Positions 3,665 to 33,035 of a stretch of DNA of 64,000 bases are shown here, in pieces. Each line of letters opens with the position of its first letter. Position 1 is the first letter of the stretch. A program made the translations under genes and the position numbers. Under the pieces are notes generated by a model. It was not told the origin of the DNA, did not search any database, and saw only the letters and a list, made by a program, of their open reading frames with translations. Source of the DNA: Picochlorum sp. SENEW3 (Eukaryota); contig CP120466.1 in assembly GCA_034226945.1 (NCBI GenBank), forward strand, positions 1-64,000, read 5' to 3'.

Positions 3665-6110
<2,446 letters not shown>

Positions 6111-21302: not shown

Positions 21303-21417
21303 AAACTTAGTTATAAGGTTATTATATACTTTAATAAATGTCAATAATTATACATTTATTTATAAATTAGTTGCAAATTAAAACAATTTATGGTACAAAT
21401 ATAAATGTACTTTTAAC

Positions 21418-21490
21418 GCGGGTATAGCTCAGTTGGTAGAGCGGCACCTTGCCAAGGTGCATGTCGCGCGTTCGAGTCGCGTTACCCGCT
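21418..21490 (+). tRNA. trnG: tRNA-Gly(GCC)
   Basis: loop TTGCCAA. Confidence 0.96.
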
Positions 21491-22079: not shown

Positions 22080-22327
22080 GGGGATATGGCGGAATTGGTA
22101 GACGCAACGGACTTAAAGGGTCAAGGTATAATATTGAGCCTTAATAGAGGAATTTATTAAGTGAATGCTCTCAAATTCAAGGAAACTTTTTTTAAAGCAA
22201 TCTTGAGCCAATTTAATTTAAAAGGTGCAGAGACTCGACAGGAGCTATCCAAAAAGATTTGGATAGTTTTCAAACTGAAAATCCGTTGATTCATTGAATC
22301 GTGAGAGTTCAAGTCTCTCTATCCCCA
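22080..22327 (+). tRNA. trnL: tRNA-Leu(UAA); exons 22080-22114 and 22278-22327
   Basis: joining exons gives ACGGA-CTTAAAA-TCCGT anticodon arm and GGGGATA/TATCCCC acceptor. Confidence 0.95.
22115..22277 (+). other. Group I intron in the trnL(UAA) anticodon, 163 nt, degenerate
   Basis: inserted after U34, ends in G; P (AAATTCAAGGAAAC), Q (GCAATCTTGAGCC), R (GCAGAGACTCGA) present; S element not found. Confidence 0.92.
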
Positions 22328-22341
22328 ATTTAGTAATAATC

Positions 22342-22372
22342 GGAGATTACTCTTGATTAAAGAGTAATCTCT
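22342..22372. terminator. stem-loop between convergent trnL and psbH
   Basis: GGAGATTACTCTT / AAGAGTAATCTCT. Confidence 0.65.
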
Positions 22373-22391
22373 ATAATTTGTTTAATGAACT

Positions 22392-24898: not shown

Positions 24899-25506
24899 AT
24901 GCCAATTGGAGTCCCTAAAGTCCCTTTTCGTTTACCTGGAGAGCCATCAGCTCAGTGGGTTGATTTATATAATAGGCTTTATCGTGAACGTGTTTTATTT
25001 TTATGTCAAGAATTAGATGATGAGTTAGCAAACCAACTTATTGGTATCATGCTATATTTAAACTCTGAAGATAAGAATAAAGGTTTATATTTATATATAA
25101 ACTCGCCCGGCGGATCTGTGACATGTGGAATTGCAGTCTACGATGCAATGAACTATGTTCAATCACCAGTTACAACTATTTGTGTCGGAACAGCAGCATC
25201 AATGGCTTCATTTATTTTAGCTGGTGGTGATACTGGTAAACGTATCGCATTACCTTATTCACGTATTATGATCCATCAACCCGAAGGTGGTAGTCAGGGT
25301 CAAGCTTCAGAAGTTTTAGCAGAATCAGAAGAAGTAATGCGTATTCGAAGACAAGTCGGTCAAATTTATGCTCAACGAACTGGTCAACCTCTAAGCCGTA
25401 TTTCACGAGATATGGATCGTGATCAATTTTATCAGCCGAAGAAGCAAAAGTCTATGGTTTAGTAGATCAAGTTGCTGTCGATACAAAATGGTCAGAAAAC
25501 AAATAA
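24899..25506 (+). CDS. clpP: Clp protease proteolytic subunit; apparent frameshift at T-run 25427-25430
   Basis: [22 protein letters not shown]; adding one T restores [18 protein letters not shown]. Confidence 0.97.
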
Positions 25507-25571: not shown

Positions 25572-26258
<687 letters not shown>

Positions 26259-26304
26259 ATTGAATTTAATTTCAATTTTAATTAATTAAAAAAAAGATTA
26301 AATT

Positions 26305-26787
26305 ATGGCAGTTACAAAAAAACCTGATCTTTCAGATCCAGTATTACGCGCAAAATTGGCTAAAGGTATGGGTCACAATTACTATGGTGAACCCGCTTGG
26401 CCAAATGACTTATTATATATTTTCCCTGTTGTAATTTTTGGGACTTTTGCTTGTGTTATTGGTTTAGCAGTGTTAGAACCAGCTGCAATTGGTGAACCTG
26501 CAAATCCATTTGCCACTCCACTAGAAATTTTACCAGAATGGTATTTCTTTCCAGTATTCCAATTATTACGTACAGTACCTAATAAATTATTAGGAGTACT
26601 TTTAATGGCAGCAGTTCCTGCAGGTTTAATTACAGTGCCTTTCATTGAAAGTATTAATAAATTTCAAAATCCATTCCGTCGTCCAGTTGCAATGACTGTA
26701 TTCTTAGTTGGAACAGTTGCTGCAATTTGGTTAGGAATTGGAGCAGCATTACCTATTGATATTTCTTTAACATTAGGTTTATTTTAA
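26305..26787 (+). CDS. petD: Cytochrome b6f subunit IV
   Basis: [14 protein letters not shown]. Confidence 0.99.
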
Positions 26788-26855
26788 TAATAAGTTCACC
26801 TGAACTTATATACTATATGTATCTCTCTTTCAATAAAGAGATACATAAATAGATA

Positions 26856-26884
26856 TCGACAATAACTTATCATCATGATAGGAT
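26856..26884 (+). promoter_or_regulatory. Putative sigma70-type promoter of ffs
   Basis: TCGACA-17 nt-TAGGAT with extended -10 TG; predicted start at the base of the SRP hairpin. Confidence 0.55.
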
Positions 26885-26887
26885 GAT

Positions 26888-26990
26888 AAATGAGGTTCAT
26901 ATTCTATGTCATTTGATTCAGAATCATGTGAGGACTGAAAAGTAGCAACATTATGGGTTGAATATAACATGAGAATTATGAATCTCATTT
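26888..26990 (+). ncRNA. ffs: Plastid signal recognition particle RNA (4.5S-like)
   Basis: about 103-nt long hairpin with apical domain IV UGU-GAGG-ACU-GAAA-AGU-AGCA-ACA (E. coli GGU-CAGG-UCC-GGAA-GGA-AGCA-GCC); adjacent to trnC-rpoB. Confidence 0.85.
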
Positions 26991-27025
26991 TTGTTAATAA
27001 AATACTTTAATTTCATTTATTTAAT

Positions 27026-27097
27026 AGGCGGCACCCAGATTCGAACTGGGGAATAGAGGATTTGCAATCCACGGCCTTACCACTTGGCTATACCGCC
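27026..27097 (-). tRNA. trnC: tRNA-Cys(GCA)
   Basis: loop TTGCAAA; upstream of rpoB on the opposite strand. Confidence 0.95.
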
Positions 27098-27182
27098 GCT
27101 GAAATATATATATATCGAACCTCTTTTACTAAAATTGTATAGGTTAACGATATTTAATCATTAGTATAACAAATTTTTCAGG

Positions 27183-30100
27183 ATGGTCCATACATTTGAA
27201 TCTACTATGTCTAATAATAAAATTATTAAAAAAAAATTACCAAAGCCAATTATACCAGATTTAGTTTCATTACAATATGGGAGTTTCCAAAAATTTTTAA
27301 TTCAAGGAATCCAAATTGGTTTAAATGAAAATACGCCTGTAAATTGTTCTTATGGAATTCATTCACTAAAAATTAAATTTTTGCCCGAAAAATTACAATT
27401 TCGTACGCCAGATAATAAAGAACAAAATTCGCTTTTTTCAGGTAAAACTTATGGCTGTTCAGTTTATATTCCAGCTGTTATTTCAAGTACTCAATGGAAA
27501 AAATCTAAAGTTGAGTGGTTATTATTAGGGTTCTTACCATTAATGACTCCAAGTGGGCATTTTATTATTAATGGAATTCCACGAATTGTATTATATCAAA
27601 TGGTACGAAATCCAGGAATATATATTCTTCCGAATGATTCACGTACCCGTGTTCCAACTATTCGTATAGTTCCGGAACAAGGTAGTTGGTTAAATATAAC
27701 TATTGATAAAAAAAATCGATTATGGATTACAACTCGACTATTACGTCGTAAAATTTCATTAATAATTTTTTTACAAGCGCTTGGTATTTCAATTTCCGAA
27801 TTATGTGCAAGAATTGAACATTCACAAATGCTTCAATTTAGTTTTATTCGTGATCAAAAAACGCAAGAAAAAACGCGTCATGGTCGAATTTTAGAACGAG
27901 CAAAATTGAATTCTCACCCACAAACTCGCATTGAAGCAATTCGTTATATATATGCGCATATTCAAGAATATACAACGTTAGGTCGCGATCAAGTTGTAAC
28001 TTCAGAAACTGCACAAGAATTTTTAATTCAATTTTGTGGAATCCAAAAAACCGTGACTTAGGTTATATTGGCCGTCAACAATTTAAATATAAATTTAATA
28101 GTACTATTTCTTCTAATTCAACATTATTATGTGGTGATGATTTAGTTTATGCAACAAATGCTTTATTGAAATTAATTTCTGGTGAAATTGAAGGTGATGA
28201 TATTGATAGTTTATCGAATAAACGTATTCGTGGTTGTGGTGAATTATTACAAGATCAATTAGTTCGTGGAATACGTGAATTTGAAATTGTTATGAGTCGC
28301 AAATTAAATTTATCCATCCAAAATGATTCTGAAATTGTATGGAAATTACAAAAATCAAATTTATCAAAGTGTGTAAGTAAATCTTGGAAAAGCTTTTTTA
28401 CAAGTGGAACTTTAGCACAATTCCTAGATGAAACAAACCCTTTAGCAGAAATTACTCATAAACGTCGTATTACGGTATTAGGACCAGGGGGAGTAAGTAG
28501 TAAACAAACAACGATTCAAATTCGTGGTATTCACCCGACGTATTATGGGCGTTTATGTCCAATTGAAACGCCAGAAGGCCAAAATGCAGGTTTAGTTAAT
28601 TCGTTAACAGTGTTTGCTCGCCCAAATAAATTGGGGTCAATTGAAACACCATTTTTTCAAGTATACAAAGGACAAGTTCAACAGTTTTTAAACCCTATTT
28701 ATAATATTCCATTTAATGAAGTAAATTATTCAATTGCACCAGCAGATATTACATGTTCGGGTACGGGTATGTTACCAAGACTCCAACTTCCGACTCGAAA
28801 AAATCGAAAATTTGATTATTCAGATTATAAAGATATTACTAACCAATCGGTTGATACATTACAGATGATATCAATTGCAACAAGTTTGATTCCATTTTTA
28901 GAACATGATGATGCAAACCGTGCATTAATGGGATCTAATATGCAACGCCAAGCAGTTCCATTAATTCGACCAGAAACTGCTTATGTTCAAACTGGGTTAG
29001 AAAGTCGTGTAATTTCTGATATTCAGCATTCGTTAAATAGTAATTTATCAGGATATATTACAAATGTTAGTGGCAAATCAATTGATATTTTTATTCCAAA
29101 TTCATTACCATTAAATTCAAATCCATCAATTTTTAAATCAACTACTATTCATAAATATTTACCTACGTTTCATTCTAATAACGTAAATAAGAAATCTTTA
29201 CAAAAAAATCTAAAATTCAAATTCTCAGCTATTACAGAATTACGAAAGTCGCTCTCTACTTCAGTATCAAATGTAAATTCAAATTCGATTCAATCAAATT
29301 TAACGAAAAGGATTTTGTTAGAACAATATAAACGAACAAATCAAAGTACAGTCAAGTATCAACGCCCAATTGTCAAAAGTGGAAATTGGATTCAAAAAGC
29401 AGATATTTTAGCTGATGGCGCAGCAAGTGCAGAAGGTAAAATTGCATTAGGAAAAAATATTTTAGTCGCTTATTTACCATGGGAAGGTTATAATTTTGAG
29501 GATGCTATTTTAATTAGTGAGCGTTTAGTAAATGAAGATATATTTACATCATTACATTTAGATTATTATGAAATTGAAGTAAAAAATACACAATATGGAT
29601 TAGAAAAAATTACAAATCAAATTCCAATTGAGTTTACAGAATCAGAAGAAGAAATATTACGTATTCAAAGACTTCAACCAAATGGTTTTATTCCAATTGG
29701 AACGTGGGTAAAAGAAGGTGATTATTTAGTTGGTAAAATTACACCAACTAGTCAAAAAATTCAGTCTGTCCAACAACAATATGAAAAATTATATAACGTA
29801 CTAATGGAACGTGATAATCAATTAAGTTCAGAACAAAAAAATGTGCGTGATACAAGTTTACGTGTTCCAAAAGGTGTCGAAGGATTTGTTTTTGATATAA
29901 ATATTTTACCACCGAAAGAAGCAGAAGTTCTTGCAATTGCGCCTAAAGATGCAATTTTACGCGTTCGTGTAGCATTATTACATAAACGTCGTATTCAGGT
30001 TGGCGATAAAATGGCTGGACGACATGGTAATAAAGGGATTGTTTCAAATATAATTCCAGCATATGATATGCCATATTTACCAGATGGCCGACCAGTTGAT

Positions 30101-30774
30101 ATTGTATTAAATCCTTTAGGTGTACCTTCTCGAATGAATGTAGGTCAGATTTTAGAATGTTTATTAGGTTTAGCTGGAACATACTTAAATGAATCTTATC
30201 TAATTAATTTATTTGATGAAAAATATGGTTCTGAATCGTCACGTAGTTTTGTTTATTCAAAATTATTTGAAGCATCATTAAAGAGCGGCCAGAACTGGTT
30301 ATTTGAACCACATCATCCTGGTAAAATTAAATTATTTGATGGGCGAACAGGAACAACTTTTGACCAACCTATTACGGTTGGATGTACTTACATGTTAAAA
30401 CTTGTCCATTTAGTTGATGATAAACTACATGCACGTTCAACTGGACCGTATTCTGCTATTACTCAACAACCAGTTCGTCGCGTAATGGTGGTCAAAGATT
30501 AGGGGAAATGGAAGTTTGGGCATTACAAGCATATGGAGCAGCTACAATTTTACAAGAATTTTTAACAATTAAATCAGATGATGTTCGAGGTCGTGTAGAA
30601 GCAGCTTTTCAAATTCATACAAATCAACCAATTGAATTTGGAACACCTGAAAGCTTCAGAGTTTTAATTCGTGAACTCCAAGCGCTTTGTTTTGACTTAA
30701 AATTATTTGGAATCCAGAAAAATACAGGATTACTACAAACAATAGATTTTAATCAAATTGAAAGTTTAGGGTAG
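27183..30774 (+). CDS. rpoB: RNA polymerase beta subunit; apparent frameshifts near 28020-28024 and 30478
   Basis: [31 protein letters not shown] across three ORF pieces; start codon uncertain (27183 or 27207). Confidence 0.97.
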
Positions 30775-30808: not shown

Positions 30809-33035
30809 ATGTATCAAACAAATGGTCGTAAATTTCAACATTTAGAAATAGGTTTAGCTTCGCCTAAAGAAATCAAATCTTGGGCGGAGCGTTTTTTACC
30901 AACCGGTGAAATAGTTGGTCAAGTAACAAGTTGGGAAACAGTTAATTATAAAACATTAAAACCCGAACCAAATGGTTTATTTTGCCAAAAAATTTTTGGC
31001 CCAATTTCTGATTATACTTGTGCTTGTGGCAAAAAAACAACAAAAGTAAATGGAGGTGTTTGTCCACGCTGTGGAGTAGAAAGAACAAAATCATTAACTA
31101 GAAGATATCGAATGGGTTATATTGCTTTAAATCAACCAATGGCTCATACGTTATATTCTATTCAAAAACCATCACCCCTTGGTTTATGTTTAAGTTGGCC
31201 TAATAAAAAATCCAAGGTGTATTATATGGAACAGAATTTATTCATCTACCAAATACATTGAAGTATTTTTCATCGGAGATGAATATTAAAGTGGACTTTA
31301 AAAAAAGTCATTTGGATAACTTAAAACTTCAAGTTAAGGATAAACCACGCTTATTTACACATAAAAGTAAGAATCAACAATTTTCTAATTTACAGCAATA
31401 TAATAAATATTTTGAAATTCGTATTTATGGATTATGTTATGATGCTACTTGGCGACAAGTAGAAGATTTACAAGATTTTTTAGTGTATATGTGGGATCAA
31501 CCACAAGTCGACGACATTGTTAATCCATATTATTCTTTTAATAATAAAACTCAAAATTTTGCATTAAAAAGTGTTCCAAAACATAGTAATTATTATCCCA
31601 TTCAAACCGGTGGAGTTGTATTCCAAAAATCTTATCATATTATGATTTAATTGGTTTACAACAACAATTAGCATTAGATATTAATGAAGTAAAACAATCA
31701 ATCAATTTTTTAAAAGAACGTATCGAAATGACTTGGTTACCCAAGTTGGAAAAAACTAAAGTTCAACTTGAAATAACACGATTTAAAGAATTAGAAAAAA
31801 AATTATTACGTCGCATTACTTATTTTCGTGATTTTTATAAATCAAATACACAATTAGCATGGATGATTTTAAGTTATCTACCAGTTCTTCCACCGGGTTT
31901 ACGCCCAATTACTTCAATTCGAGGAGAACTAGTTATTTCTGACTTAAATAGTCTTTATCGTAAAGTTTTAACAAGAAACCGTCGATTAATAAACAGAACT
32001 CAATTTAGTATTTTTGATACTGCTTTAAGTGGTAGTTGGGCTTCTTGGTGTTATAACTTACGCCAAGTACAAGAATCAGTCGATGCATTATTAAAAACGG
32101 GAAAAGTTGATTCAGGGAAAGTAACAAAATCTTTATTAGATGCATTAAAAGGTAAACGTGGTCGATTTCGTCAACATTTATTAGGAAAACGAGTTGATTA
32201 TTCAGGTAGGTCTGTAATTGTTGTTGGTCCAGAATTAAAAATCCATGAATGTGGATTACCTAAACAAATGGCTATTGAATTATTTCAACCATTTCTAATT
32301 CAGCGATTACGTAATAAAGGAATGGCTTTTACAACAATTGGTGCAAAAGCTATCATTATGGAACGAAAACCAATTATTTGGGTTTTATTACGTGAAATTA
32401 TGCAAAGTCATCCCATTTTACTAAATCGAGCTCCTACTTTACATCGTTTAGGTATTCAAGCTTTTATTCCAAAACTTGTTGAAGGTAAAGCAATTCTATT
32501 ACACCCACTTGTTTGTCCAGCTTTTAATGCTGATTTTGATGGAGATCAAATGGCAGTTCATATTCCATTATCAACAAGTGCTCGTGCTGAAACTTTTAAT
32601 TTACTTTTATCATGTAATCATTTATTATCACCAGCTTCTGGGCAACCATTACTTTTACCGACCCAAGATATGGTTCTTGGTTGTTATTATTTAACATTAT
32701 TAAAATACAACAAATTTCAAAAAGAACAATCTTTAAAATTCAATATTTGGTATTCTACCATTTCAGAAATTCTTGCCGATTACCAAAGTAATAAAATCCA
32801 TACACATACTCCAATTTGGATAAAATTAAATTTTCCAGTTCAAACATTAATTGGCGAAAAACAATCAAAAGAAGTAAATAAACCCTTAGAGATTCGATTA
32901 ATGAAAAATGGAAATAAATATACGTATTTTCACGAAACCTATATAGTGCATGAATCCAAAAGTTCATTAACACCAAGTTATTTTTATAGAACAACTGCTG
33001 GTCGTGTACTAATGAATAATTTAATTTATAGCTAA
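30809..33035 (+). CDS. rpoC1: RNA polymerase beta' subunit; apparent frameshifts near 31205-31210 and 31625-31629
   Basis: Zn finger CACGK..CPRC, GKRVDYSGR, NADFDGD; one added A at each site joins three ORFs. Confidence 0.97.

What the first reader, a model, noticed from the sequence alone, without database searches (positions are those of the whole stretch)
26888..26990. Plastid-encoded SRP RNA (ffs) hidden in the petD-trnC spacer
Seen: about 103 nt fold into one long hairpin (AAATGAGGTTCATATTCT pairs with AGAATTATGAATCTCATTT). The apex UGU-GAGG-ACU-GAAA-AGU-AGCA-ACA matches the bacterial 4.5S RNA domain IV layout, with the symmetric loop bound by the Ffh/SRP54 M-domain and a GNRA tetraloop. 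The loop reads GAGG rather than canonical CAGG. Known: seed-plant cpSRP works without RNA, while ffs survives in some algal and early land-plant plastomes, often next to trnC, and is frequently missed by annotators. Inference: this very reduced plastome still keeps an RNA-containing SRP, and the intact GAAA tetraloop suggests it may still stimulate cpSRP54-cpFtsY assembly.
Basis: partly seen in the sequence, partly recalled or inferred. Interest (0 to 1): 0.75.

Follow-up and report, generated by a model that had tools for sequence, protein, structure and literature searches.

The report
Algal chloroplast protein-targeting RNA gene
This small green alga's chloroplast genome very likely still carries the gene for the short RNA that helps deliver new membrane proteins to the photosynthetic membranes, a gene already known from related algae but easy to miss.

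Summary
Real, and a known kind. 26888-26990 (+) folds into one long hairpin (z -4.35) capped by the SRP domain IV layout, unique in the window (0 of 200 shuffles). Rfam RF00169 matches end to end at 35.8 bits (E 6.7e-4 window-wide), under its cut-off of 40. All 8 of 80 related plastid loci that reach trnC carry the same element facing trnC; one scores 42.9. Stems show compensatory changes, and a sigma70-type promoter sits at a fixed distance in 9 of 10 copies. The nucleus encodes cpSRP54 with both RNA-binding motifs intact and cpFtsY with Lys399. So this is very likely the plastid ffs gene of a Picochlorum-like trebouxiophyte; plastid SRP RNAs with GNRA loops are published for this class, and this scan found the gene before in Auxenochlorella (e1-2939818). 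Transcription and binding are not shown. New detail: C46G always goes with G64A, is real in three independent runs, is absent from 401 cyanobacterial genomes, and changed twice on the tree; some relatives carry an extra side hairpin.

The parts
26305..26787 (+). petD, upstream neighbour
   Evidence: ORF and translation
26816..26847 (+). Short inverted repeat after petD (11-bp stem), likely the 3' stem-loop of the petB-petD transcript; separates petD from the RNA gene (inferred)
   Evidence: Fold -12.1 kcal/mol; similar hairpin at this place in L031 and L032
26856..26884 (+). Predicted sigma70-type (PEP) promoter: -35 TCGACA, 17-nt spacer, extended -10 TAGGAT; predicted start about 26890-26892
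   Evidence: 9 of 12 matches; one of 8 sites in 551 nt against 4.6 expected, so not significant alone; same spacing in homologues
26888..26990 (+). Plastid SRP RNA gene (ffs, 4.5S type), about 100 nt, one long hairpin; ends inferred, not mapped
   Evidence: (RF00169 26894-26987, 35.8 bits, model 1-97)
26921..26925 (+). 5' side of the asymmetric internal loop (5 nt against 2 nt at 26952-26953; E. coli 4 against 1)
   Evidence: Folds
26930..26933 (+). 5' strand of the symmetric loop, GAGG (E. coli 46-49 CAGG); G46 is the unusual base
26937..26940 (+). GNRA tetraloop GAAA, closed by a 3-bp stem (26934-26936 with 26941-26943)
   Evidence: pair probabilities 0.92-0.95
26944..26948 (+). 3' strand of the symmetric loop, AGCA (E. 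coli 60-63), followed by A64 (G in E. coli)
26988..26992 (+). U-run behind the stem (7 T in three public runs, 5 in this assembly); possible 3' end
27026..27097 (-). trnC(GCA), convergent downstream neighbour

Best explanation
The hairpin is the plastid-encoded SRP RNA (ffs). Proposed working: (1) the plastid polymerase transcribes it from its own promoter at 26856-26884 as an RNA of about 100 nt ending at the U-run (inferred); (2) the nuclear-encoded cpSRP54 binds its symmetric and asymmetric loops through the M domain (motifs shown intact, binding inferred); (3) on plastid ribosomes making thylakoid membrane proteins, the GAAA tetraloop tethers cpFtsY through Lys399 and speeds cpSRP54-cpFtsY assembly as in E. 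coli (both partners' features shown, the step inferred); (4) the ribosome is handed to the thylakoid insertion machinery (established knowledge). It most likely serves the co-translational route only, since cpSRP54 ends in IRR, not the A(R/K)R motif needed to bind cpSRP43. G46 with A64 is a tolerated re-tuning at the edge of the protein-binding loop, not decay.
For: RF00169 full-length match, 35.8 bits, E 2.6e-6 in 251 nt and 6.7e-4 in 64 kb, the best non-curated-threshold family at this place. Descriptor unique, 0 of 200 shuffles. Of 80 petD loci, 8 hold trnC and all 8 hold the element facing trnC (7 by descriptor; L035); L056 is a ninth whose contig ends first. L058 passes the cut-off at 42.9 bits. 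Identity to L034/L035/L039/L056 is 89-94% in domain IV, 74-76% in the core, 46-50% upstream. In 7 aligned copies 90.9% of cells pair (shuffled 83.4, 0 of 500; slid partners 37-49%), 14 cells change on both sides (0 of 500). Promoter rule met in 9 of 10 copies with the -10 box ending 44-47 nt before position 46 in all 10; background 6.8% of 4000 AT-rich windows. cpSRP54 (G000:C4) keeps the equivalents of E. coli Ffh S382, M383, E387, R388, S397, R398, R401, G405, G407; these motifs track ffs presence in plastids (PMC6367104, PMC8321541, passages). cpFtsY (G000:C12) keeps K399, as reported for trebouxiophytes (PMC4091067).
Against: Score is below Rfam's gathering cut-off (35.8 against 40; one search reports nothing), as for 6 of the 7 homologues that Rfam reported; L048 and L061 were not reported at all. 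The genome-wide RF00169 search missed this locus (52 of 904 candidates scored). Position 46 is C in 26 of 26 bacterial SRP RNAs read, and the G46/A64 pattern is in 0 of 401 cyanobacterial-class genomes against 309 of 401 for C46/G64, so binding may be weaker. The number of pairs with a two-sided change (6) is not above the shuffle control (66 of 500), the apical helices hardly vary, and the sequences are related. No transcript end, strand or level could be shown. A GNRA loop does not prove the E. coli mechanism in plastids (PMC4091067 cautions so).
Confidence: 0.9

Rival explanations
1. It is ffs and binds cpSRP54, but is only a scaffold on the way out: it no longer speeds the GTPase cycle, as reported for the moss RNA.
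For: G46 departs from a base that is C in all 26 bacterial copies read. Plastid RNAs bind more weakly than the E. coli RNA: moss cpSRP54 binds its own RNA at about 1.3 uM and the Ostreococcus RNA at 0.185 uM (PMC5115805, passages). The lower stem is not conserved in sequence and four relatives carry an inserted hairpin there.
Against: GNRA loop and cpFtsY K399 are both kept; domain IV is 89-100% identical among six relatives while flanks drift.
Confidence: 0.3
2. It is merely a 3' stem-loop or two-way terminator between the convergent petD and trnC transcripts, and the SRP likeness is accidental or a dead relic.
For: Plastid spacers are rich in inverted repeats (271 pairs in the window); both strands fold; U-run behind the stem; sub-threshold Rfam score.
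Against: petD already has its own short hairpin at 26816-26847. The most conserved part is the unpaired loop, which a terminator does not need. The element follows trnC, not petD: in L048, L061 and L058 clpP lies upstream instead. A promoter sits at a fixed distance upstream. cpSRP54 keeps its RNA-binding motifs.
Confidence: 0.05
3. The GAGG reading or the whole motif is an assembly artefact of an error-prone contig.
For: The contig has many frame breaks (rpoB, rpoC1, clpP and others) and two T are missing at the end of this very hairpin.
Against: Three runs of three studies show no substitution across the apex; L031, L032, L039, L056 read GAGG too.
Confidence: 0.01

Closest known systems
Plastid SRP RNA (ffs, cpSRP RNA) of Trebouxiophyceae and prasinophytes (Traeger et al. 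2012, not held, known second-hand; Rosenblad et al. 2013, PMC4091067, whole text read)
   Same: Plastid-encoded, one long hairpin with asymmetric loop, symmetric loop and GNRA tetraloop; partner cpFtsY with Lys399; cpSRP43 present in the same alga.
   Different: Nothing of kind. This copy has G46 with A64; whether published trebouxiophyte copies show this could not be checked (alignments of Traeger et al. not seen).
Bacterial small SRP RNA, 4.5S (E. coli ffs; Rfam RF00169, clan CL00003)
   Same: Identical domain IV geometry (3 bp, 4x4 loop, 3 bp, GNRA); A47, G48, G49, A60, G61, C62, A63 kept; full-length model match.
   Different: About 100 against 114 nt, 32% G+C, weaker stem (-30.9 against -57.0 kcal/mol); C46G and G64A; below the curated score.
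Moss (Physcomitrella) cpSRP RNA (PMC5115805)
   Same: Plastid ffs coexisting with cpSRP43.
   Different: Moss has a 10-nt apical loop and an A(R/K)R tail on cpSRP54; here the tetraloop is canonical and the tail reads IRR, the chlorophyte pattern.
RNA-less cpSRP of seed plants
   Same: Same protein set (cpSRP54, cpFtsY, cpSRP43).
   Different: Seed plants lack the RNA and have altered binding motifs; here both are kept.

Membership tests
Bacterial-type small SRP RNA (RF00169) | Score at or above Rfam's gathering cut-off (40 bits) | tested here: not met
   35.8 bits; homologues 27.4-42.9, only L058 passes. A curation threshold for bacterial sequences, not a structural feature.
Bacterial-type small SRP RNA (RF00169) | Significant full-length covariance-model match | tested here: met
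   Model 1-97 of 97, E 6.7e-4 over the 64 kb window and all 4227 families
Plastid SRP RNA (ffs) | Elongated hairpin with asymmetric loop, symmetric loop and apical loop | tested here: met
   predicted, not probed
Plastid SRP RNA (ffs) | Symmetric loop bases A47, G48, G49/A, A60, G61, C62, A63 | tested here: met
   Aligned to E. coli ffs (L028)
Bacterial-type small SRP RNA (RF00169) | C46 of the consensus CAGG | tested here: not met
   G46 here and in 4 of 9 homologues; C in the other 5; C in 26 of 26 bacteria
Plastid SRP RNA (ffs) | GNRA tetraloop (typical of basal green algae, not required in plastids) | tested here: met
   GAAA at 26937-26940; PMC4091067 Table 1
Plastid SRP RNA (ffs) | Structure kept in relatives by compensatory change | tested here: met
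   Three of five measures beat all 500 shuffles, two do not; 7 related sequences
Plastid SRP RNA (ffs) | Partner cpSRP54 with the two RNA-binding motifs intact | tested here: met
   the names SM and GXG are recalled, the papers seen speak of two motifs
Plastid SRP RNA (ffs) | Expressed as a discrete RNA of about 100 nt | tested here: inconclusive
   Only assembled contigs were on offer
Plastid SRP RNA (ffs) | Binds cpSRP54 and stimulates cpSRP54-cpFtsY assembly | not testable with these tools
   Needs biochemistry; K399 of cpFtsY is kept

The most novel reading that the evidence does not exclude
In this group of small trebouxiophytes the protein-binding loop of the SRP RNA has a coupled two-base switch, C46/G64 to G46/A64, that changed twice (two gains, or one gain and one full reversal) and is not found in the cyanobacteria searched: a natural compensatory pair across neighbouring rungs (46-63 and 45-64) that marks a structural rule of SRP domain IV. 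With an inserted side hairpin in the distal stem of sister lineages and a full E. coli-like set of partners (GNRA, K399, both M-domain motifs), this fast-growing, transformable alga group would be a good place to test whether a plastid SRP RNA still catalyses receptor assembly.
Probability: 0.35. Interest if true: 0.45.

Novelty: new member of a known kind. Interest (0 to 1): 0.25.

Why it matters
Mostly annotation: a real, single-copy plastid gene that standard Rfam thresholds miss and that a comparison of plastomes of this clade does not mention (no 'ffs' or 'SRP' in the main text of PMC11434904). It matters to anyone using the petD-trnC spacer as a neutral insertion site or minimising this plastome, since the spacer holds a promoter and an RNA gene. 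For SRP evolution it adds a bacterial-like end point (GNRA, K399, intact M domain, no cpSRP43-binding tail) and a small natural covariation at positions 46 and 64.

Tried and rejected
Rfam at curated thresholds: nothing at this place. Other families at the spacer (microRNA and snoRNA models, E 1-9): chance. Genome-wide RF00169 search of G000 missed the locus and returned only the nuclear 7SL gene. Expression: the metatranscriptome X16 has no contig over 26803-27003 although it covers petD and rpoB, and the oligo-dT run X15 covers the hairpin only at the depth of rpoB (4-6.5), which DNA carry-over would also give; neither is evidence either way, since a 100-nt structured RNA is lost from such libraries (4 of 24 listed runs laid). 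A trnC pattern meant to collect plastid contigs returned 8 viral and 123 prokaryote stretches (80 fetched), by their titles and G+C mostly bacterial tRNAs; not useful. Ten petD loci from viral contigs showed no RNA family. The exact apex was not found in viral contigs. Whole-record searches of metagenome plastid contigs were not possible, so for 71 of 80 petD loci absence within the fetched stretch says nothing of the genome. Loose descriptor hits in those loci (about 1.65 expected per 64 kb), including L044, were dropped: not supported by Rfam (L044) or by my own model. My model R1, built from 7 copies, recovered its training set and L058 (32.1 bits, E 0.09) but missed L048 and L061. No canonical terminator. 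Traeger et al. 2012 is not held; its alignments and supplements may already show G46 or the side hairpin. No paper was found to back the recalled geometry of the 46-63 pair. No fold or complex prediction was run: the tools do not take RNA partners.

Full report
Setting. The window is bases 1-64000 of contig C14 (74,137 nt) of a 13.85-Mb, 14-contig genome. It is a green-algal plastome: 32.2% G+C over the first 74,000 nt, no large inverted repeat, and ARAGORN lists no trnT(ggt), trnL(caa), trnS(gga) or trnR(ccg). These traits are the ones PMC11434904 gives for Picochlorum (12 of 17 passages seen), so I call it a Picochlorum-like trebouxiophyte; this is an inference, not a tested placement. Gene order at the site is psbB(-), clpP, petB, petD, spacer, trnC(-), rpoB.

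Observation. Because both strands of AT-rich inverted repeats fold and the window holds 271 such pairs, stability alone means little; the loop layout is what counts. A strict descriptor (3 bp, NAGG, 3 bp, GNRA, AGCA) hits once in the window, hits E. coli ffs, and hits 0 of 200 shuffled windows. Rfam gives nothing at curated thresholds but RF00169 matches over its whole length at 35.8 bits, E 2.6e-6 in the spacer and 6.7e-4 in the whole window. The locus is single-copy in G000. A genome-wide RF00169 search, which scored only 52 of 904 candidates, missed it and found the nuclear 7SL gene instead.

Is the odd base real? The contig is error-prone (see below), so I laid 4 of 24 listed runs on 26200-28200 (all are assembled contigs). 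X3 spans the whole stretch with no substitution; X11 spans 26223-27082 with three substitutions, all upstream of 26814; X15 spans 26919-27083 with none. All three add TT after 26987. So G46 is real and the tail is U7. Contigs cannot show transcription: X15 covers the hairpin only at background depth, X16 not at all; I treat both as uninformative.

Relatives. A PetD search of metagenome contigs kept the best 80 of 534 confirmed loci. Eight hold trnC in the fetched stretch, and all eight hold a domain IV hairpin facing the 3' end of trnC: L031, L032, L034, L039, L048, L058, L061 by descriptor and L035 by inspection and Rfam. L056 is a ninth, cut before trnC. In L048, L061 and L058 clpP, not petD, lies upstream, so the constant neighbour is trnC-rpoB. 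RF00169 scores: L058 42.9 (over the cut-off), L031 39.4, L032 39.3, L034 38.8, L035 33.2, L039 28.3, L056 27.4; L048 and L061, with 3-nt apical loops, were not reported. The other 71 loci show no credible copy in the stretch held, which says nothing about their genomes. Against L034, L035, L039 and L056, identity is 89-94% in domain IV, 74-76% over the 76-nt core, 46-50% upstream and 43-58% downstream (three loci). On an alignment of 7 copies, 25 core pairs: 90.9% of 175 cells pair (shuffles 83.4, 0 of 500; slid partners 37-49%), 14 cells change on both sides (0 of 500), covariation score 0.333 (0 of 500); the count of pairs with a two-sided change (6; 66 of 500) and of pair types (82 of 500) are not above control, the structure came from the window's own fold, and the rows are related. 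The three distant copies were left out of this count because they did not align; each folds into the same shape on its own.

Its own promoter. A sigma70-type site, TCGACA-17-TAGGAT with a TG extension, lies at 26856-26884. Alone it is not significant (8 sites in 551 nt, 4.6 expected). But the best site in a 17-nt search window has its -10 box ending 44-47 nt before position 46 in all 10 copies, scores 9 of 12 in all 10, and meets the tool's full rule in 9 of 10 (L048 has a perfect -35 and only 3 of 6 in the -10); 6.8% of 4000 random AT-rich windows meet the rule. The copies are not independent, but the spacer between the boxes has drifted while the boxes have not. A short hairpin at 26816-26847 lies between petD and this promoter. 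I infer a separate transcript from about 26891 to the U-run.

Protein partners. G000 encodes cpSRP54 on C4 (570-aa frame with an N-terminal extension; 48% identical to E. coli Ffh), cytosolic SRP54 on C2, cpFtsY on C12, SR-alpha on C5 and a chromodomain-ankyrin protein with the cpSRP43 layout on C9. cpSRP54 keeps the equivalents of Ffh S382, M383, E387, R388, S397, R398, R401, G405 and G407. Two papers state that loss of plastid ffs goes with changes in two such motifs (PMC6367104, one passage; PMC8321541, seven passages). The 265-aa exon of cpFtsY aligns K to E. coli FtsY K399, the residue that contacts the tetraloop; PMC4091067 (whole text) reports it in trebouxiophytes but not prasinophytes. 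The cpSRP54 tail reads IRR where streptophytes have A(R/K)R; PMC5115805 (part 1 of 6 and eight passages) says that a valine there blocks cpSRP43 binding in chlorophytes. The cpSRP43 candidate has a proline near the start of its second chromodomain, which fits that paper's description, but I did not align it to the Chlamydomonas protein. PMC6244792 (eight passages) was used only for the ARRKR motif.

Mechanism. Shown: the anatomy of the RNA, its conservation, the promoter-like boxes, the partner residues. Inferred: transcription, binding, and the tetraloop-K399 tether that speeds receptor assembly during co-translational delivery of plastid-encoded membrane proteins. I put identity as ffs at about 0.95, a working RNA-containing SRP at 0.9, and E. 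coli-like catalysis at about 0.6.

The unusual base. Five copies (window, L031, L032, L039, L056) have G46 and A64; five (L034, L035, L048, L058, L061) have C46 and G64; no mixed form occurs. In bacteria, 26 of 26 RF00169 matches from 30 genomes have C46 and G64, and in 401 genomes of the cyanobacterial class the G46/A64 pattern occurs in 0 and the C46/G64 pattern in 309 (mixed forms were not searched). In a five-gene tree of 10 loci (L031 standing in for the window; rooted by eye on L048, L058, L061), L034 (C46) is sister to L039/L056 (G46) at 92.5/97, and a single G46 clade is rejected (AU p 0.002); a two-gene tree of 20 rows agrees. So both bases changed together twice. Two events are few, and the backbone is poorly resolved. 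My reading, from recalled base-pair geometry that I could not source, is that a sheared G-A replaces a sheared C-A and the closing U-G becomes U-A; the predicted ensemble keeps the loop open with G46. Separately, L034, L035, L039 and L056 carry an inserted side hairpin in the 3' strand of the lower stem, where the window's RNA has a one-base bulge.

What is known. Plastid SRP RNAs occur in all chlorophyte branches; 5 of 7 trebouxiophyte copies have a GNRA loop (PMC4091067). ffs is added on re-annotation of other plastomes too (PMC12548569, three passages). Traeger et al. 2012 could not be read and Rosenblad and Samuelsson 2004 is recalled only; no supplements were opened, and those of Traeger et al. 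may already show G46. Nine literature searches listed no paper on ffs in this genus or on the 46/64 change; (25 of 58 listed) no paper held both the genus name and 'ffs'. This scan reported the same gene between petD and trnC in Auxenochlorella (e1-2939818; an unchecked note, not evidence); look-ups by place and by sequence gave nothing.

Verdict. A real, very probably functional plastid ffs gene: a new member of a known kind. Interest 0.25, for the missed annotation, the promoter and the coupled change.

Noticed in passing
window 27183-30774, 30809-33035, 24899-25462: rpoB, rpoC1 and the end of clpP are broken into pieces. The rpoB break near 28019 is an assembly error (three public runs differ by one base there; L031 has one 1207-aa frame); small indels against L031 also fall in clpP, the end of rpoB and rpoC1. 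rbcL and atpA beyond the window are split too. Split genes in this contig should not be read as biology.
   Followed up: partly
window 21414-21490 and G000:C14:71954-72030: Two identical copies of trnG(GCC), 77 nt, in opposite orientation.
   Followed up: no
window 22105-22374: Group I intron match (57.6 bits), inside what looks like trnL(UAA); reported in the E-value scan but missed by the fast curated scan and by ARAGORN as run.
   Followed up: no
L034:6771-6895, L035:6606-6735, L039:3148-3268, L056:3563-3684: The ffs homologues carry an extra side hairpin of about 15-25 nt in the 3' strand of the lower stem, making a three-way junction not present in the window's RNA.
   Followed up: partly
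L048:7237-7259, L061:7370-7392: More distant plastid ffs candidates with 3-nt apical loops, order petD-clpP-ffs-trnC-rpoB, missed by RF00169; their clpP frames read AGG at many places where the window's ClpP has Met, which may be a genetic code variant (seen, not tested).
   Followed up: no
L234:1327-1624 (G000:C1): Nuclear 7SL SRP RNA gene, 97.3 bits, with canonical CAGG.
   Followed up: partly
L004:1270-2055 and L005:1255-1908 (G000:C11): Two nearby copies of a protein with a lone SRP54 M-like domain (PF02978, 33.9 bits), no GTPase domain, a possible organellar presequence and a cysteine-rich C-terminus; it lacks the RNA-binding motifs.
   Followed up: no
window 4450-4636: Rfam IsrR match (178.9 bits) lies antisense within the psbC-region ORF; most likely a cross-match to coding sequence.
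   Followed up: no
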